Assembly: GCA_001275005.1 (NCBI GenBank)
Contig: JWZX01003090.1
Location: 1-64,000 of the forward strand
DNA: 64,000 nt
Direction: 5' to 3'
Source of the DNA: Chrysochromulina tobinii
Lineage: Eukaryota
Every line of letters starts with the position of its first letter. Positions within the stretch are counted from its first letter, which is position 1. The translations under genes and the position numbers were made by a program. Positions 8,640-40,694 of this stretch are shown here, piece by piece. The notes under the pieces were generated by a model. The model saw only the letters and a list, made by a program, of their open reading frames with translations, made no database searches and was not told the origin of the DNA.

Positions 8640-10026
8640 TCAGAAAAGGTCATCCAGGTTGTTGATCGAGGCCTTGATGTTCTTGATATGCTTGTGTCCG
8701 AGGAACTCCTTGTCCAGGGACTCAACGCCCATCGCGTCGATAGCCTGCAGGCCACGCTTGCCCATCGCTGCATCCGCGACCGTGTCGCGCGCGAGCACGT
8801 CGACAAACTCCTCGTAGCTGATGCTGCCGTTTCCGTCCTTGTCGCACGCGTCGATGATGGACTGGAATCGCCCCCTGTCCATTTGGAGGTTGAACCGATC
8901 AAAGGCGTGATAGAGCTCCTTGGGCGAAAGCGTTCCCGAAGCGTCCAGGTCGAGGTCTTGGAAGGCCTTGCGCATATTGGAGAACTTAGCGTTGATCGCA
9001 TCGCGTGCCTGATTCAGCGCGGCCTTTTTCTGCGCCTCCGTCTGGACGGGCGCATTGGCGGAGGCGGCCATCATGGTCTCGTAGTCTTTGTTGATGGTGG
9101 CCTTGTCATTCTTGTAAAAGCGATTGCCCTCATTCTTGAGGAACTCCTTGCTCAGGGATTCGACACCCATCGCTTCGAGAGCCTGCATATCGCGCTTGCC
9201 CCATCGCCGCAATTGTCACCGTGTCGCGCGCGAGAACATCTACGAACTCCTTATAGTCGATGGAGCCGTCGCCGTCCGCATCGCACGCGGCGATAATCTC
9301 CTTCAGCTTCTTCTTGTCGAGCGGTACGTTGAACATGTCGAGCGCTTGCGCAAGCTCCTTCTCATTCAGCGTACCCGAGTGGTCGAGGTCGATGTATTGG
9401 AAGGCCTTGAACATGTCCTTGAACTTGTTGTTGATTGCATCCTGCGCTTGCATGACCATCGAGCTCTTCTTGAGCGCCTCCATCTTCTTCTTCTTTGCTG
9501 CCTTCTCCGCCATCGCAGCGGCGTTCAAGGCTCCCCCCGCTCGAGCAGCCTCGGCAGCGGCAGCGGCATCGGCGGCGGCGGCGGCGGCTTGACGCGCCTC
9601 CCGCCGGAGCCGCGCGCGCTCCTTGCGCTCGAGCGCTTGGGCGTAGAGCTCCGACGCGAGCACCGCGGGTCGGTCGTGCTTGGGGAACGGAGGCGGCGTC
9701 ATGCGCGACTGCTTTTCGGCATCCGCCTTCATGAGCGCCAGCTTGGAGTACTTATCGAGGGAACGAATTGCAGGTAGCTTTGGTTTGGGGCTCGCGGAGG
9801 GATCAAAAGCAGAAGCCCCCGGGATGTCTATCGCTGGGAACGAGACTGAAGTTTTCAATTTTGGCATGCCAAGATTAGGGTCCGTGCGCACGCGGCGCAT
9901 AATCGCAGTGCCTGCGAAAGGGTTGCGCTCGTGGACACCCTGTACATACTGCTTCCAGAAGTCACCCTCTGGCCGTCTGCCAGTCTCATCGAACCTGCTG
10001 ATCAGTGTCGACGCGGAGCGACGCAT
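8640..10026 (-). CDS. EF-hand calcium-binding protein with a duplicated EF-hand-pair module (+1 frameshift at 9199-9202)
   Basis: EF loops DLDHSGTLNEKE, DADGDGSIDYKE, DLDASGTLSPKE, DKDGNGSISYEE. The two modules share FVDVLARDTV..AAMGKR..QA..AMGVESL.KEFL once one G is removed. Confidence 0.85.
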
Positions 10027-10198
10027 CGCGCCCAGTCGGTCTCGGTGCGCAACCACACGAGATGAAACCGACAGGCAAGTTTGTCACCAATGCTTCGGGT
10101 CCGTTTCAACAAGGGGCCCCTTGGTTTCAAATACACCGTGCGGAGTTTCACCCGTTACTACGAATGGAGAGATGATTGCCCGGGCAGAGCGCATCCCA

Positions 10199-10222
10199 GC
10201 CTCGAGGCCTCGAGGCCTCGAG
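10199..10222. repeat. (GCCTCGAG)x3 self-complementary tandem repeat
   Basis: Read directly from the sequence. Confidence 0.85.
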
Positions 10223-10300
10223 GGGGCCTCTTCAGCCTGGGATCAAGGGCCTGTGATGCGCTCTGCCCGGGCTATCATCTGATACCGGTCCTCTGACTAA

Positions 10301-10377
10301 GTTGAGTTGAGTACTTGAGTTGAGTTGAGTTGAATACTCGGGTACTCATGTGTACTTGATTTGAGTGACTTGAGTTT
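10301..10377. repeat. Degenerate (TTGAG)n microsatellite next to the retroelement's left end
   Basis: gttgagttgagtacttgagttgagttgagttgaa...ttgatttgagtgacttgagt. Confidence 0.85.
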
Positions 10378-10398
10378 CGTGAGCATGTCGCTAATTAG

Positions 10399-11030
10399 TC
10401 AGCGCGTCGCTAAAAGTCGCTAAACCGACCAGGGTAAACCGGTAACCGCAACGGCTACACGGACCGAGGTCTCTAGGCAAGCTTGCGATCCGTTTCTCCC
10501 TTGTCCGTCTAAGTCCAAGGGCGTACTTGGATTGTGGGTCCTTTCGTTTGTGTGTGGCGCTTTGTTTGTTTGTGTGTGTGGGTGCGCCGCCCTCTGCGCC
10601 CTCCACGTTGGGTCTCCACGGGACCGGTGGTCGTGCGTCTTGCCGAGATGGCAATCTAACGTGAACTTGGTGACCGTTGCGGCGCTTCAACTTTCCCCTT
10701 TCGGAAGAAGTTCGCTCGACGAACTCGTCGCGGCGTGTTCGTATAGGCGGTGAGCACTGCGTTTGTATATTAAACATACGATTGGCGTTACACTTAGGGC
10801 GACACGTGGATGAGCATTGGTCCCTTGGGGCCCCTCGGTAACTACCTTAAGAGTTGGTTGTTACCATTGGGCTAGGGAGTAGCTACGGTTCCCTCGCGGG
10901 GATATTATGCTGCGCATAATATGCTACCGCGAGCGCTTAAATCCGCTCTAGTGGCTACTCCTATCGAGGCTGGACAGGCCAGGGAACCCGACCATAGGGG
11001 ATGGTCGGATCGGCTGGTGTGTCACTCGAT
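10399..11030 (+). ncRNA. Putative structured RNA domain of the retroelement
   Basis: Many nested stems: 10876-86/10951-61, 10893-99/10927-33, 10902-10/10914-22, 10988-95/11001-08, 10446-54/10674-82, 10512-19/10526-33, 10604-11/10656-63. The non-Watson-Crick pairs are G-U on the plus strand. Confidence 0.6.
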
Positions 11031-11048
11031 TATTTATTGTACTAACTG

Positions 11049-13733
11049 TTACTGCTGTTGTGTTTGTGTGTTTGGCGCGGTTGCTGGCGCTGCTCCACTT
11101 ACCCGCATGAGTGTTGCTCTCCACGCTGCCAGTGCCATTCCGTTCCCGTCTAGGGGTGTGAAGAGCAGTGAGGGTGGGAGTCGCATCTCCACTTCAACTG
11201 CCTCTGGCGGGATGAGGTGGAACTTATCGGCCCTCGTGGGCCAGTCCGCTGGGTTGTCGTCGGTCGGCACCCAGTCGAAGTAGACGAGTACGTTGAACCA
11301 AAGGAGAGCTAGGTGCAGCATGCACACAAGCCGCATGCAGCCGGGGAAGTTACCGCTTCCGCCGACGGCTGCTGAGAGGGCAACCGTGTTGTCGCACCAG
11401 TGCATGACTGCCCGCCCCTTGAGGCGATCGCCAAACGTATAGTATGCCGACACCATGGCTAGCATCTCGGCTTGCGCGATGTGCTGTTTCTTGTTCACAT
11501 CGAATAGGAGATAGCACCACCGCGGGACGTCCTGCTTGGCGTACACCAGCGCTGGTTGCCCGGCCGGGGGTTCTAGGTCGACGAGCCATATTCCGAGCTT
11601 GCCGTCGCCTGGTCCGAAGCTCCTGGGGTGTCGCACGTAGGATGCGTCGGTGTACAAGTACACCGGCCTTCGCCTGTCTCTTCTCATGTAGACGAGGAGT
11701 GGCGGGAGCGCTGGGAGTACGACGAGGAGGAAGGCTAAGACCTCGCTAAGTTCGGGTGTCCAGGCGTCGCTGGTCCCGCGCGCGTGCCTGCTCAGGACGC
11801 CAACGACCGCCCTGCCGACCCGTATGGCGGCGGTTTGCAGCGTGAAGCCGAGCTTCCCTACCACCTCTTCGGCGGCTCCTGGGTCGAGGCGGCGTTTTTC
11901 CTTGCCCTCCTGAAGTTCCCGGAGGATGTTCTTGATCCTGCTTTCGGTGGCCGAGAACTCCGCGTATCCCTCTGGGAGGTGAACGTTGGCGAGGTTAGCT
12001 TGTACGCCGAGTAGCTTGTTGGCCGGTCTCAGCGGCTGGTGCTTATCTGCTTTTATTTGGAATCCGGCGCACTCGTGGGTGCAGCCGATGCCATCGGCGG
12101 CCCTACTTTTGGCCTCGATGATGTCCACCGTGAAGTGGTCGTCAACGTAGTGGTCTGTGAGGAGCCCGAAGTGCACTCTGGTGGTCCATGATAGGAGGTG
12201 CGCAACTCTTGCGAAGTTGAGGACGCTCGCCGAGGAGCCAAACGTGTGTCCCCAGACTACGCTAAATCTGACTCCGGCTTCGCCGAGTCTGTTGCCGTCG
12301 TCTAGGCCGCTGTAGTAGAAGGCTACTATGAACCAGTGCGCGTCGGCGTTTGGTACTTGCCTGAAGGCTCCAGCCATGTCGTCGACTGTGAGTCCGCACG
12401 CCGGCATCGTTATGCCCTGGGCGTCGTACGCCTCTCTGAGAATGCGACATGCTGTGGCGGGCGTCTCGAAGCACGGGTTGAACGTCGTCTCGCAGTGCGA
12501 GACTGCCCCGTTCTGCCCCCCGGTTTTGGCATTGTCAATTCTTCGCCAGGCGATGGACCCGTCGGCCTTTTCGCCCTGATTGCGCGCGAAGGCGGTGATG
12601 ACTCGAATGCCTTTGAGGCCGCCATGCTGAGCGGCCCAAGTTCGAAGTTCTTTCTGCGACATGGGCTTGCCCATGGTCGGCTGCGGTACACTGCTGCCAT
12701 CTGCCGCCGTTCTGGTGAGGCGTGATTCTTTGAGTACCGAGGCCTCGATCGCTCGCAGGGCCCCGGCGCGGTCCCCTCCTTCGGCGAGTGCTTCTGTGGC
12801 TTCTCGTTTCGTCTTCCTGATGACGTCCCCAAGCCAGTCTACGTTGCTTGGGTGGTATTGTTGTGGCGATGCTTTGCTGTCTTGACCCTGGGGTTGCGGG
12901 CGCCTAGCCCGTCCTCCGCCGAGCTCGTCGAGTGTGTAGGCTGCAGGTCGGCAGACTGGTCGGAAGAGCCCGCTGTCGGCGAGGGTTCCGAACGATGGGA
13001 AGCCCGCGGTCAGGTGCTTCCCGAGGTTTATGTCTGGCCAGTCGTAGGCTTCGATCCATGCGCACATTAGCGGTACGTTCACCTGGCTGCAGATGACTCG
13101 CGCCTCCAGGGTCATGATGTGATCCACTACCCAGTCGGCGAAAGGGCGCAGTGCACTCGCCGCCGCCTCCATGAGTTGCCTGCGGGCCAGTCCGTTTGCC
13201 ACGAGGCCGGTCCCGGCCGCGACCATGTAGTCGGCGATGTCCCGAATGGTGTCGTGCGAGTGCATGCGTACGTTGTGCGAGACGTGCGGTAGTGTTGTTA
13301 TGTGGGTTATTGCGTACATGACGTGGGCCCAGGGGTTGCCCGGCTCGAGGGGCACCAGCCTGTCGCAGACTGGTCTGACCCACTTGTTCCCGATGTCGTC
13401 GGCCGCGTGGCCTCCTGCCCATCGTTGCGGCAGCTCCGCCGGGGGGCGTGCGTACGATCTTGTCGACACTCTGGCGCCCCTGAGGGCGACGACCACCGCG
13501 TCGAAGGCGGTAAGGTAGTCGCGCGGGACTCTATGTGGGCTGCAGAAGCGAAGTGAGTCTCGCGGCTCCCAAAGGGCGCTGCCGGTGATGGTTGCGAGGA
13601 GCAGGGGGGTGAGTGCGCTCATCCTCCTAGCTGCTGGGATTGCCATTTCGCCGAGCGTCCTTTCGTAACGTTGTCCTGCTAACGGTCGGGGTTTGGGGAT
13701 GCATGCGTCGAGTCGCGTTCGGTCCCTGCCCAT
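11049..13733 (-). CDS. Reverse transcriptase-RNase H polyprotein, DIRS/Ngaro (YR-retroelement)-type, 894 aa
   Basis: RT motifs WRRIDN, TVDDMAGAFRQVP, GHTFGSSASV..F, HYVDDHF, KLLGV. RNase H motifs LYTDAS, IAQAEMLA, WCDN, WVPTDDNPADWPTR, with all four acidic residues present. No stops or introns. Confidence 0.92.
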   Translation of the reverse strand: MGRDRTRLDACIPKPRPLAGQRYERTLGEMAIPAARRMSALTPLLLATITGSALWEPRDSLRFCSPHRVPRDYLTAFDAVVVALRGARVSTRSYARPPAELPQRWAGGHAADDIGNKWVRPVCDRLVPLEPGNPWAHVMYAITHITTLPHVSHNVRMHSHDTIRDIADYMVAAGTGLVANGLARRQLMEAAASALRPFADWVVDHIMTLEARVICSQVNVPLMCAWIEAYDWPDINLGKHLTAGFPSFGTLADSGLFRPVCRPAAYTLDELGGGRARRPQPQGQDSKASPQQYHPSNVDWLGDVIRKTKREATEALAEGGDRAGALRAIEASVLKESRLTRTAADGSSVPQPTMGKPMSQKELRTWAAQHGGLKGIRVITAFARNQGEKADGSIAWRRIDNAKTGGQNGAVSHCETTFNPCFETPATACRILREAYDAQGITMPACGLTVDDMAGAFRQVPNADAHWFIVAFYYSGLDDGNRLGEAGVRFSVVWGHTFGSSASVLNFARVAHLLSWTTRVHFGLLTDHYVDDHFTVDIIEAKSRAADGIGCTHECAGFQIKADKHQPLRPANKLLGVQANLANVHLPEGYAEFSATESRIKNILRELQEGKEKRRLDPGAAEEVVGKLGFTLQTAAIRVGRAVVGVLSRHARGTSDAWTPELSEVLAFLLVVLPALPPLLVYMRRDRRRPVYLYTDASYVRHPRSFGPGDGKLGIWLVDLEPPAGQPALVYAKQDVPRWCYLLFDVNKKQHIAQAEMLAMVSAYYTFGDRLKGRAVMHWCDNTVALSAAVGGSGNFPGCMRLVCMLHLALLWFNVLVYFDWVPTDDNPADWPTRADKFHLIPPEAVEVEMRLPPSLLFTPLDGNGMALAAWRATLMRVSGAAPATAPNTQTQQQ

Positions 13734-13840: not shown

Positions 13841-14962
13841 ATGTCGTCGGCCCTCGCTTCCCCGACAGCGTACGCGATCCTTTGCACGGAGGGGCTGCAG
13901 GAAATGCTACCGACACTTCGTGCTGATGCGAGCGTCGAGGTGGGTGCGGTGTTCGACACTCTTGCCCTGGCGATGATCGAGGGTCATAACGACGCCCGGA
14001 CCCTTACGCGCACTGCCAAACGGCTGTGGCGGGCGACCCTTGGTGAGGATCCTGCTGCGGATCCTGATGATGAGACTACGCCGGGCTGGGAGAGCCTGCG
14101 CTCCAAATTGGACCGTTGCGTTGCCCGCGCGAAGGACTCGCTTGCTCGTAGCCTGGCGGGTCATCAGGCCCGCGCGACCGATGATGCTGGTTCTGCTGGT
14201 GTCGCCACCTCCGGCCGCTCGATGTCGGCTGCAGAGGAGACCGATATGGACGCTCGGTGGCAGGCAAGTGGTCGTCGCGTCCCGGGTGAGATCTTCATGC
14301 CTTCTTCGTCGTTTCTTGCGACGATGCGGAAGTACCTCTGGCCGGTGGGCCACGTCGACACGTCGGAGGGTATGGTGGTGCGGCCGAGTTCGATGGAGTG
14401 GCCAGCGAAGGAGCAGGCCCCAATCGAGGTCGTTGCTACCCGGAAGGGGGTGCACTTCCGCCCGGCTGGCAGGGTAGGTGTTGCTCCTACGACTGCCTAC
14501 GGCATGGTCGAGCGCTTCGAGGCGAAGCTTTTGGCTGCTGAGATGTGCCTGGTCGGGCGCGAGGCGCCGTCGGGTTACACGTGCGAGGACGGTGTCGGGA
14601 GGGTGCCCCTTTCGGAGCGTGCCGTCTCGCTCACCTGCGAACTCCTGCGCACGCTGCTGAGCACCGCGGCGCATCACCCGGATGCCCGCGCCATCATGCT
14701 GTCGGCAGTGAATCGCCTGGACGAGGACGTCCGTGATTACGTGCGGCAGAAGATGTCTCCTGGGGCTGCGCTGGTGGCGGCCTGGCCGACCTTGCGCGCC
14801 CAGATCGTCCAGGTGGATCGCGAGGGCCACCATGGGGCGCCCGATGCTGCGGCCGCTTCTAGTTCCTACGAGCGACTCGCTCATTCCTTTGGCCAGCCTC
14901 TTTTGTCGAGGGTGGCGTCTAGTTCTTGGTGGGTCACGGGATCCCACGCCATCCTGGGATGA
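13841..14962 (+). CDS. Retroelement ORF2, 373 aa, helical, possibly gag/capsid-like
   Basis: Intronless ORF starting 107 nt from the RT ATG in divergent orientation. T-ending codons are unlike host genes. AATAAA at 15015. No R...HxxR...Y recombinase signature seen. Confidence 0.65.
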   Translation: MSSALASPTAYAILCTEGLQEMLPTLRADASVEVGAVFDTLALAMIEGHNDARTLTRTAKRLWRATLGEDPAADPDDETTPGWESLRSKLDRCVARAKDSLARSLAGHQARATDDAGSAGVATSGRSMSAAEETDMDARWQASGRRVPGEIFMPSSSFLATMRKYLWPVGHVDTSEGMVVRPSSMEWPAKEQAPIEVVATRKGVHFRPAGRVGVAPTTAYGMVERFEAKLLAAEMCLVGREAPSGYTCEDGVGRVPLSERAVSLTCELLRTLLSTAAHHPDARAIMLSAVNRLDEDVRDYVRQKMSPGAALVAAWPTLRAQIVQVDREGHHGAPDAAAASSSYERLAHSFGQPLLSRVASSSWWVTGSHAILG

Positions 14963-15077
14963 CGTGGTTAAGGGAGGTGTCACCCTAATTAGGGTACCGT
15001 CAATGCGTCTGTGTAATAAAGCCCTGAGGCCACACCCCCCAATCCAGTCAGGGCCGCATTTTCCACCACGTAACACG

Positions 15078-38417: not shown

Positions 38418-40694
38418 TCACAGCGCCTGCACCTCGTTGTTGGCAGCCATTTGCTGAGCGCGCGGCGAGAGGTCAAACTCTGGCTCAAACTCTGGCGGTG
38501 GCGGCGGTCGCATGCCGCCCAGGCCGAGCGTGGGCACGCCGGGAGCGCCGAGCACCGGCAGGGCTCGCTGACCACCCACGCCGCCTCCCCCGCCACCCGA
38601 CGAAATGGATCGCTGGTGGGCTCCCGGCGGAGGTGGCCTGACGCTCGGTGGCGGCGGCGGTGAATGCATCGAGGGCGGCGGTGGCAGCATCGGGCGCGGA
38701 GGGCCCGCGCGCATGCCCATGCTCGGTGGCGGTGGCGGTTGGTGCTGCGGCGGAAAGCGCGGCGGCGGCTGCGCGCCCATGCCAGGCGGTAGCGGGCGCG
38801 CCCCCATAGCGGGCGGTGGCGGCCACGCGCCGTTGCCGGGCGGCGGCGAACGCGGCGGAGGCGACATCTGCGGCGAGCGCGGTTGCATCGGCGGCGGTAT
38901 TCCCATACCGGGCGGCGGCGGCCGCGCGCCGCTGCCGGGCGGCGCTGGTCGCTGTCCGGGCCCCATGCCCGGAGGCGGCGGGGGCGGGCGTGCCCCCATA
39001 CCGGGCGGTGGCGGCCGCGCGCCGTTGCCGGGCGGCGGCGGTCGCGGTCCGGGGCCCATGCCCGGAGGCGGCGCGACGCTCCTAGGCACTACGTGGTGAA
39101 GGGCGGCTGGTCGCCCCGGCACACCGGAATCGGAAGCTGCTGTGCCCAAGCCCCTTTCGGGCGGTGGCGGGCGCGCGCCAATGCCAGTTGGCGGTGGTCG
39201 CATGCCGAGCGTGACGTCCGCCGAGCTTCCAATGAGGGCTGGCGGAGGGGCTGAGGGGCGTGGGCGCGCGGAGCCCGCCTTGCCCGAATGCGGGAGACCG
39301 TTCTCGCGACAGTAGAGAGCGAAGCCGGCCGCATCGGGGTCGAAGCACGAGAGGAAGCTGGCGAGCGATGCCTGCTCGGGCAGGTGCGGCACCAGCGGCT
39401 CCTTCCCTTCCAGCCACTTGAGCAAATGCACGCGCGTGCACGCGATCAAAGCGAGAGGCAGCTCGAGGTGCTTGCCAGGCGATACGGTAGCGATGCCGTT
39501 CTCCACGAGGATCGTGTAGCTCGGATTCACTGTGGGCTGGTTCGAGTTGCTGCTGCTGCTGCCGCCGCCGCCGCCGCCGCCGCTGCTCAGGAGCAGAACC
39601 ACGCCATCCGATTCCCGCCCAAGCACCGCGGACCGCACTATGCACCGGCTCAGGTAGCTCAGGAACTTGAGCATCAGCGGGTCCTCCGCCGCCGCGGCGA
39701 CGGCGGCCTCGGCGGCAGCAGCCTGCTTGGCGGCGAGCGATTCGCGCTCGTTCGCGAGCACCCGCATGTGCTCGGCAATCCACGGGTGCTCGCGAAGCTC
39801 TGCCATCGGCATGCGGAGGTTTGGGTCAGTAGCGAGCAATTTGCTCACCACGCTCTTGGCCGGGCTGGAGATGTGCTTCCAGTCGGGCGATGACATGCCG
39901 AGGCGGCCACGGCATATTTCGCGCATGAGCATCTCGACGGGCTGCTCCTGGTCAAACGGCGCAGCGCCGCTCAGCATCACGTATAGCGCCACGCCCATCG
40001 ACCACAGGTCGACGCGCTCGTCGTAGCGTGGCGGTGGCGGACCTCTAGGGTCGGCAAAAAACCACGGCGTCACCTCGGGCGCGGCGTACAGAGGCGTGCC
40101 GCAGAGGTCGCCGAGCCCCGCCTCGGTTAGGAAGCCGGCCGCGCCCATGTCGATGATCTTGAGACGATTGCGCGATTTGTCTGTGAAGCAAACATTCTCG
40201 GGCTTCAGGTCACGGTGGACGATGCCCGCCTTGTGCAACTCTGAGATCGCGTCGGTCATCTGCGCGAAGAGGCGCATAGCTTTTTGCTCATTATACGCGC
40301 CGCGCTCCTCGATGGGCGAGAGCAGGTCGCCGCCCGCCACTAGCTCCATGGCCAGGTATACACACCCGGGCGTGCTGATGATCTCCTTCATCTGCACGAT
40401 GCCCGGGTGGTCTGGCACCGCACGCAGGATAGTCACCTCGTCGCGCAGTCCTTCGCACGACTGCTGCAGCCCTCCATCAAGCTTGAACGCCTTGAGCGCG
40501 TACGTCTTGCCATCAGCCAGACAGACGCCCTCATACACGGAAGCCGTCATCCCTTCGCCAAGCTTCCTCTTCACGAGGTAAACTTCATCAACAGAAGAGG
40601 CAACCACGACGTTGCGCAGGTTGAGCACCTCGGCGGCGTGTTCTTTGGGGGCTTTACCAACGAGGCGTTTGATTGCCGCGAACCAGGAGGGCAT
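38418..40694 (-). CDS. CAMK-family Ser/Thr kinase with a proline-rich repeat C-terminus
   Basis: LGEG..ASV, YALK, HRDLKPEN, IIDMG, CGTPLYAAPE, DLWSMGV, then repeated PPPPG(M/N)GARP. Confidence 0.9.
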   Translation of the reverse strand: MPSWFAAIKRLVGKAPKEHAAEVLNLRNVVVASSVDEVYLVKRKLGEGMTASVYEGVCLADGKTYALKAFKLDGGLQQSCEGLRDEVTILRAVPDHPGIVQMKEIISTPGCVYLAMELVAGGDLLSPIEERGAYNEQKAMRLFAQMTDAISELHKAGIVHRDLKPENVCFTDKSRNRLKIIDMGAAGFLTEAGLGDLCGTPLYAAPEVTPWFFADPRGPPPPRYDERVDLWSMGVALYVMLSGAAPFDQEQPVEMLMREICRGRLGMSSPDWKHISSPAKSVVSKLLATDPNLRMPMAELREHPWIAEHMRVLANERESLAAKQAAAAEAAVAAAAEDPLMLKFLSYLSRCIVRSAVLGRESDGVVLLLSSGGGGGGGSSSSNSNQPTVNPSYTILVENGIATVSPGKHLELPLALIACTRVHLLKWLEGKEPLVPHLPEQASLASFLSCFDPDAAGFALYCRENGLPHSGKAGSARPRPSAPPPALIGSSADVTLGMRPPPTGIGARPPPPERGLGTAASDSGVPGRPAALHHVVPRSVAPPPGMGPGPRPPPPGNGARPPPPGMGARPPPPPPGMGPGQRPAPPGSGARPPPPGMGIPPPMQPRSPQMSPPPRSPPPGNGAWPPPPAMGARPLPPGMGAQPPPRFPPQHQPPPPPSMGMRAGPPRPMLPPPPSMHSPPPPPSVRPPPPGAHQRSISSGGGGGGVGGQRALPVLGAPGVPTLGLGGMRPPPPPEFEPEFDLSPRAQQMAANNEVQAL

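What the first reader, a model, noticed from the sequence alone, without database searches (positions are those of the whole stretch)
10794..11030. Compact multi-stem RNA domain with possible pseudoknot just past the RT stop codon
Seen stems: GACAC 10801-05/GTGTC 11019-23 (closing); GGTAAC/GTTACC hairpin; GGAGTAGCTAC 10876-86/GTGGCTACTCC 10951-61, enclosing CTCGCGG/CCGCGAG and ATATTATGC/GCATAATAT; CCGACCAT/ATGGTCGG. A crossing 8-bp pairing, GGTTCCCT 10887-94/AGGGAACC 10981-88, suggests a pseudoknot or switch. By eye this stem density is much higher than in other intergenic DNA here. Inference: an RT-binding, priming or packaging signal, or an unrecognised ribozyme.
Basis: partly seen in the sequence, partly recalled or inferred. 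Interest (0 to 1): 0.82.

Follow-up and report, generated by a model that had tools for sequence, protein, structure and literature searches.

The report
Conserved fold at retrotransposon end
The stems are a real, conserved fold at the very end of a jumping gene that copies itself through RNA and likely inserts with a tyrosine recombinase; the fold likely marks where copying of the RNA begins, a step still unexplained for this class of elements.

Summary
The stems are real (z -4.4 and -5.5; 0 of 200 shuffles as stable) but are not a free-standing RNA. 10768-10944 is a terminal split direct repeat (A) of a retrotransposon with RT-RNase H, a divergent Gag-like gene and, in fuller copies, a likely tyrosine recombinase (motifs only). 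10945-11030 is the unique sequence between A and the RT stop. A second subfamily (37% identical at four-fold RT sites) keeps 55 of 61 hand-aligned pairs, 5 by compensatory change. The central 11-bp helix is rebuilt at the internal copy of A from an unrelated partner strand in both subfamilies. The proposed GACAC/GTGTC closing stem is not supported. The 8-bp crossing pairing survives as 7 of 8 pairs without compensation and competes with neighbouring helices, so it is a possible switch rather than a shown pseudoknot. No Rfam match and no ribozyme motif. Best reading: a cis-acting signal at the 3' end of the RT-sense RNA that recruits RT and sets priming (inferred, about 50%). The folding strand is unresolved. 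The gene and repeat layout fits none of Ngaro, PAT/Kangaroo or DIRS1 exactly: a new variant of a known kind.

The parts
10768..10944 (.). Repeat A (177 bp), left terminus of the element; a second copy lies inside fuller copies, joined to repeat B
   Evidence: Present twice in L001, L002, L006, L007 (176-177 bp) and L003 (about 200 bp); four different neighbours at its ends in Logan contigs
10768..10771 (+). Left junction core TATT; the internal B|A junction is an imperfect palindrome around the same core
   Evidence: Three unrelated flanks stop exactly here (window, L001, L003)
10830..10872 (.). Irregular hairpin in A: GCCC/GGGC plus GGTAAC/GTTACC
   Evidence: 11 of 11 hand-aligned pairs kept in L003; MAFFT misregisters part of it
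10876..10961 (.). Central helix 10876-86/10951-61 closing a junction with helices 10893-99/10927-33 and 10902-10/10914-22; one strand in A, the other just outside A
   Evidence: formed in terminal and internal contexts of both subfamilies; compensatory C-G/A-U and G-C/C-G changes; 8-bp inner hairpin invariant
10887..10988 (.). Crossing 8-bp pairing 10887-94/10981-88; possible only at the terminal copy; competes with three nested helices (possible switch)
   Evidence: 7 of 8 pairs kept in L003, two as G-U on the RT-sense strand, no compensatory change; L003 also has a 10-bp alternative partner
10963..11030 (.). Long irregular hairpin in the unique segment X between A and the RT stop; present only at the terminal copy
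   Evidence: z -4.9 and -5.4 alone; 3 compensatory pairs on the unedited MAFFT alignment
11049..13733 (-). RT-RNase H ORF (894 aa; homologues start about 30 codons later), no room for a methyltransferase domain
   Evidence: ESM Atlas neighbours at 0.95-0.97 include RVT_1 and RVT_3 clusters; YVDD at 529, YTDAS 694, WCDN 779, 68 residues after DNPAD; no Pfam hit
13841..14962 (+). Gag-like ORF, divergent from RT; in this copy a deletion of about 700 bp removes the C-terminal CCCH finger
   Evidence: 69% identical to the 494-aa L003 ORF, which ends in zf-CCCH, E 2.7e-7; deletion against L001
14868..15060 (.). Repeat B (193 of about 290 bp left), right terminus in this assembly, core CATT at 15057-60; on the RT-sense strand B holds the start of the recombinase-like ORF
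   Evidence: L001 1-136 equals L001 3553-3688; internal B encodes the first 38 residues of P0062 (and of P0068 in the L003 family)

Best explanation
The region is the conserved, folded end of a retrotransposon with split direct repeats, and it likely acts as the signal at the 3' end of the RT-sense RNA that recruits the element's own RT-RNase H and sets where cDNA synthesis starts. Shown: the full element reads, on the RT-sense strand, B - recombinase-like ORF - Cys-rich ORF - A|B - Gag-like (antisense) - RT-RNase H - X - A; the fold covers X and A and is conserved by compensatory change. Inferred: a promoter in terminal B (B holds the recombinase-like start codon) gives a full-length RNA that ends in terminal A. 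The central helix forms at both copies of A, but the X hairpin and the crossing pairing exist only at the terminal copy and would let RT tell the true end from the internal copy. After priming, RT would jump from the RNA 5' end to internal B|A to rebuild both ends, the DNA would circularise, and the recombinase would integrate it at the TATT core without a target duplication.
For: Repeat anatomy and junctions. 55 of 61 hand-aligned pairs kept between subfamilies, 5 compensatory, against 45-49 expected if the same 21 changes fell at random (P 0.009 or lower for pairs kept, below 0.001 for compensatory pairs); on the unedited MAFFT alignment 92.9% of cells paired, 4 compensatory pairs, 4 of 500 shuffles as high, slid controls 34-46%. 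Four-fold RT sites only 124 of 333 identical against 101 of 122 stem bases. Central helix rebuilt at internal A with 10 of 11 and 11 of 11 pairs from upstream DNA that shows only weak local similarity to X (shuffle P 0.0002 or lower). RT-sense strand favoured by two invariant G-U pairs, three between-subfamily wobble changes, a contig variant at 11008, a variant in L001's internal copy and the two G-U pairs of the crossing pairing. In DIRS-1 no primer is known and a 3' hairpin has been proposed as primer (PMC7192593, passages).
Against: No functional data; only two subfamilies, so covariation rests on one comparison and helices were chosen by hand from the RT-sense fold. Three positions favour the + strand instead (C-A on RT-sense), the consensus energy is lower on + (-80.0 against -74.6) and L003's z-score is stronger on + (-4.3 against -3.6). 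An AATAAA lies at 11032-37 on the RT-sense strand just before the fold, so RT mRNA could end before it. In L003's terminal context the central helix has only 6 of 11 ungapped matches by the shuffle test (7 Watson-Crick pairs in the 8-bp core). The recombinase identity rests on motifs only (no hit).
Confidence: 0.5

Rival explanations
1. The fold is a 3'-end processing, termination or stability element shared by the two RT-sense mRNAs (recombinase and RT), both of which run into a copy of A; it would not be needed for priming.
For: Both RT-sense ORF groups are followed by A and the central helix is kept at both; AT-rich AATAAA/ATTAAA precedes X in both subfamilies.
Against: Does not explain why the X hairpin and crossing pairing are conserved only at the terminal copy.
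Confidence: 0.2
2. The fold works on the other (+, Gag-sense) strand: either the 5' leader of a Gag-sense genomic RNA (packaging or priming signal, as Kangaroo-like orientation would suggest) or a structure of the single-stranded cDNA used in end repair and recombination.
For: Comparable or better folding on + and with DNA parameters (z -6.2 and -4.0); three G-U pairs on +; TATTAAA at the start of A and a conserved AATAAA about 45 nt before the end of B on +; DIRS-1 accumulates single-stranded cDNA (PMC7192593, passages).
Against: More wobble changes fit the RT-sense strand; a + strand full-length RNA needs an extra promoter in A with no ORF to serve.
Confidence: 0.17
3. The fold is a self-cleaving ribozyme of an undescribed class that cuts the element's RNA at its end.
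For: Size, multi-helix junction, possible crossing pairing, an 18-nt invariant run (10867-10884); other retroelements carry ribozymes (recalled).
Against: No Rfam match; no hammerhead, HDV-like, twister or hairpin core seen by eye (motifs recalled); unpaired positions only 50 of 81 identical; search for DIRS plus ribozyme gave 8 papers, none on this by title or abstract start.
Confidence: 0.08
4. The stems are by-products (ancient duplications or protein-binding palindromes) with no role as a fold.
For: Only one informative comparison; 6 of 61 pairs broken; one helix is invariant and so uninformative.
Against: Compensatory changes, wobble changes and the rebuilt central helix.
Confidence: 0.05

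Closest known systems
Kangaroo (PAT group, DIRS order; Volvox carteri), as described in PMC4157794 (passages)
   Same: Split direct repeats; internal repeats lie upstream of the recombinase; recombinase inverted relative to Gag.
   Different: Here RT is also inverted and divergent from Gag, there is no methyltransferase domain, Gag has a CCCH finger, and an extra Cys-rich ORF follows the recombinase-like ORF.
Ngaro and VIPER/TATE retrotransposons (PMC8547959, PMC6681497, PMC9210276; passages)
   Same: Split direct repeats of similar size (VIPER A 173, B 219 bp), Gag-like, RT/RH and YR, no methyltransferase.
   Different: Those are A1-ORFs-B1A2B2 with the internal repeats after all ORFs; here 3.2 kb with the recombinase-like ORF separates the internal junction from terminal B, and genes are on both strands.
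DIRS-1 of Dictyostelium (PMC7192593, PMC3266345; passages)
   Same: RT/RH plus YR, NTT/ATT ends without target duplication, unknown primer, a 3' hairpin proposed as primer.
   Different: DIRS-1 has inverted terminal repeats and an ICR; its proposed hairpin is 14 nt, against a roughly 200-nt multi-helix domain with compensatory changes here.
Hepadnavirus epsilon and retroviral psi signals (recalled, not tested)
   Same: Structured RNA at an end of the RT template, lying in a terminal redundancy, used for RT binding or packaging.
   Different: No sequence or Rfam similarity; no evidence of protein priming here.

Membership tests
DIRS order (YR retrotransposons) | RT and RNase H | tested here: met
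   ESM Atlas 0.95-0.97 with RVT_1 (52% of one cluster) and RVT_3 clusters; motifs; no Pfam or PDB sequence hit
DIRS order (YR retrotransposons) | Tyrosine recombinase | tested here: inconclusive
   728-aa ORF conserved in 8 protein clusters with invariant R, K, Q-x-x-R-H, W and Y in recombinase order (pattern recalled; the His of His-x-x-Arg is Gln). No profile, atlas or fold hit; model pLDDT 38.5. Absent from the window's assembly.
DIRS order (YR retrotransposons) | Gag-like ORF | tested here: met
   CCCH finger at the C-terminus in L003; Gag role inferred
DIRS order (YR retrotransposons) | Ends at a short shared core, no target-site duplication | tested here: met
   TATT at three left ends and at the B|A junction, CATT at the one right end seen; no empty site seen
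DIRS order (YR retrotransposons) | Split direct repeats or ITR plus ICR | tested here: met
   A twice in 4 of 4 subfamily-1 loci and in L003; B twice in L001 (only 136 bp of terminal B visible), supported by protein starts
Ngaro | No methyltransferase domain | tested here: met
   68 residues after the last RNase H motif
Ngaro | A1-ORFs-B1A2B2, internal repeats downstream of YR, ORFs co-directional | tested here: not met
PAT/Kangaroo | Methyltransferase domain | tested here: not met
PAT/Kangaroo | YR inverted, internal repeats upstream of YR | tested here: met
   Relative to Gag, given the ORF is a YR
PAT/Kangaroo | No zinc finger in Gag (Kangaroo) | tested here: not met
DIRS1-like | Inverted terminal repeats and ICR | tested here: not met
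   No such repeats
Any DIRS superfamily | Placement in RT/RH phylogeny | not tested
   No reference sequences or distant homologues obtained; the representatives search was busy 8 times
Known self-cleaving ribozymes | Match to an Rfam model | tested here: not met
Known self-cleaving ribozymes | Self-cleavage | not testable with these tools
   Needs an in vitro assay

The most novel reading that the evidence does not exclude
A new lineage of tyrosine-recombinase retrotransposons, built as two halves joined by AB repeats with Gag opposite to RT and recombinase, uses a 200-nt switchable RNA domain at its 3' end as the missing primer signal: the central helix marks both copies of A, and the terminal-only hairpin and crossing pairing license RT initiation (self- or protein-primed) at the true end.
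Probability: 0.3. Interest if true: 0.8.

Novelty: new variant of a known kind. Interest (0 to 1): 0.5.

Why it matters
How DIRS-order retrotransposons prime reverse transcription is stated as unknown (PMC7192593). A compact end domain with compensatory changes, present in two contexts within one intact-looking element, gives a concrete substrate for mapping cDNA starts and for break-and-rescue mutants. The gene and repeat layout also adds a form not among those listed in the papers I could read.

Tried and rejected
Rfam: 0 matches at gathering score in 64 kb; 5 weak matches in 10100-11100 at E <= 10, none in the finding. No second copy of the element in the window. No host genome held. More homologous DNA was not found: viral contigs 0 loci in 4 scans, prokaryote genomes 0 in 2 scans; the one metagenome scan gave 8 loci, of which 7 are two subfamilies (L003-5 identical) and L008 a distant fragment that I did not use. 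DNA for the P0002 and P0004 families could not be fetched. AlphaFold models were unusable (pLDDT 31.8 and 38.5); fold search gave no match at E <= 0.001. The representatives search never ran. One search's helix count included a mis-indexed helix and was redone; helix TCCCT/AGGGA was dropped from the count because it competes with the central helix, and the 3-bp inner stem of the 10830-72 hairpin because its register differs. Penelope-like partial tandem (considered) was rejected once repeat B and the recombinase-like ORF were seen. A spliced recombinase mRNA across RT (idea from an earlier finding): internal B is not followed by GT. RNA runs X15/X16 hold only scattered contigs (share 0.10) and show neither strand nor ends. 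A 10-bp complement between the end of A and RT codons occurs in both subfamilies but is within chance. tRNA primer-binding sites were not tested.

Full report
Observation. All 14 stem arms are at the stated places. The region folds better than all 200 shuffles on both strands (z -4.35 and -5.52); 1 of 123 random tiles elsewhere in the window reached z <= -4. The closing stem GACAC/GTGTC is in neither fold. Rfam has nothing.

Context. The window is from a GC-rich eukaryote (EF-hand, kinase, UBX, RING and UDP-sugar pyrophosphorylase genes), held by mixed-culture DNA runs and in small share by freshwater RNA runs. The ORF 11049-13733 (-) is RT-RNase H (atlas neighbours with RVT_1 and RVT_3; motifs), with four close protein clusters (81-98% over residues 330-894) and one distant one. 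A Gag-like ORF diverges from it (13841-14962, +).

Element anatomy. One metagenome scan gave 8 loci: four of the window's subfamily, three identical ones of a second subfamily (L003; 72% nucleotide identity over RT) and one distant fragment. In all seven, window 10768-10944 (repeat A) occurs twice: at the end after RT, and internally, joined to repeat B (window 14868-15060 and beyond). L001 shows a second B at the far end, and B encodes the first 38 residues of a 728-aa ORF in both subfamilies. That ORF has invariant R, K, QxxRH, W and Y in the order of tyrosine recombinases (pattern recalled), but no tool confirmed it. The element thus reads B - recombinase-like - Cys-rich ORF (40% identical between subfamilies) - A|B - Gag-like (antisense) - RT - X - A. 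Three unrelated flanks stop at TATT at the end of A, the B|A junction has the same core, and the window's right end has CATT, in line with the NTT/ATT ends reported for DIRS1-like elements (PMC3266345, passages). The window lacks the recombinase half. L006/L007 share its left flank and Gag deletion yet continue into A and the recombinase-like ORF, and contig depths (A 159, X 75.5, internal context 64.3, flanks 46.5 and 48.6 in run X1) hint at two copies each with an internal A; depth is only a weak guide, so collapse of the assembly is likely, not shown.

Conservation of the fold. Four-fold sites in RT are 124 of 333 identical between subfamilies. Of 61 hand-aligned pairs, 47 are unchanged, 3 kept by wobble, 5 kept by change on both sides and 6 broken, mostly at helix ends; random placement of the same 21 changes keeps 45-49 pairs and gives under one compensatory pair (helices chosen by hand, so P values are optimistic). 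On the unedited MAFFT alignment of three rows, 92.9% of cells pair with 4 compensatory pairs, against 34-46% for slid partners; two helices are misregistered there. The central helix has one strand outside the repeat; at the internal copy, different upstream DNA supplies 10 of 11 (L001, L006) and 11 of 11 (L003) pairs, including a matching compensatory change. The repeat boundary lies 0-6 nt inside that strand at the terminal copy. The crossing pairing keeps 7 of 8 pairs in L003, two as G-U on the RT-sense strand, none compensatory; it overlaps three nested helices, L003 offers an alternative 10-bp partner, and a perfect 8-bp helix arises in 24% of shuffles. It is a possible switch. The closing stem loses 4 of 5 pairs.

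Strand. Two invariant G-U pairs, three between-subfamily wobbles, two within-subfamily variants and the crossing pairing fit RT-sense; three positions, the consensus energy and L003's z-score fit +. Unresolved; I lean to RT-sense (about 60%), also because B must already hold an RT-sense promoter and A an RT-sense end signal (inference).

Mechanism. Most likely a cis-acting 3'-end signal for the element's RT (0.5); rivals are an mRNA end or stability element (0.2), a + strand leader or single-stranded cDNA structure (0.17), a new ribozyme (0.08) and no role (0.05). Anatomy and conservation are shown; every functional step is inferred. For DIRS-1 the primer is unknown and a 14-nt 3' hairpin was proposed (PMC7192593, passages).

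Comparison. It works like a DIRS-order element with split direct repeats, but fails defining features of Ngaro (repeat and gene order), Kangaroo/PAT (no methyltransferase, Gag finger, RT strand) and DIRS1 (no ITR/ICR) as given in PMC4157794, PMC8547959, PMC6681497 and PMC9210276 (passages only; PMC3783388 passages, added nothing). Eight literature searches showed no description of this layout or of a conserved terminal RNA fold; none of the 15 listed of 42 papers contained 'RNA secondary structure'. The primary Kangaroo paper was not held, and I did not see the Poulter and Goodwin reviews, Repbase or any supplements, which may bear on novelty. Earlier scan notes list 72 findings on split-repeat elements in at least 19 genomes, none matching this RT by sequence.

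Verdict. Real, conserved, and explained as to place; new variant of a known kind; interest 0.5.

Noticed in passing
window 10593-10666: A 74-bp motif in the flank with several hundred times the background contig depth, in about 60 contigs with varied flanks. By eye it resembles an HDV-like ribozyme (GTC/GAC stem with loop TCCACGG, possible first helix 10586-91/10626-31, hairpin 10640-54; motif recalled), but folding is not better than shuffles, Rfam has no match, and it is absent beside L001 and L003.
   Followed up: partly
window 10170-10280: 30-bp inverted repeat, 93% complementary, z -7.25, followed by GAGTT/GAGTA short repeats at 10296-10380; perhaps a small DNA element.
   Followed up: partly
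window 9199: Contigs of two runs lack one base here; the window's extra base may be an assembly error that splits an EF-hand gene into ORFs 9130-10056 and 8640-9212.
   Followed up: no
L002 228-257, L006 1894-1925, L007 54-85: In one copy the recombinase-like ORF is cut near its start at a 32-bp palindrome that joins other sequence.
   Followed up: partly
L003 about 1040-1240: The recombinase-like ORF of this copy is split by a frameshift.
   Followed up: no
L001 2517-3068; L003 2356-2904: Small Cys-rich ORF of about 183 aa after the recombinase-like gene, 40% identical between subfamilies, no Pfam hit.
   Followed up: partly
L001 3130-3226; L003 2900-2970: The motif ATTCAGGACA occurs twice just upstream of internal A in both subfamilies, on either side of the strand that closes the central helix.
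   Followed up: no
L003 5076-5127: A 52-bp perfect palindrome between the divergent Gag-like and RT genes.
   Followed up: no
window 39817-40527: Two neighbouring tiles with strong folding (z -3.8 and -5.2).
   Followed up: no
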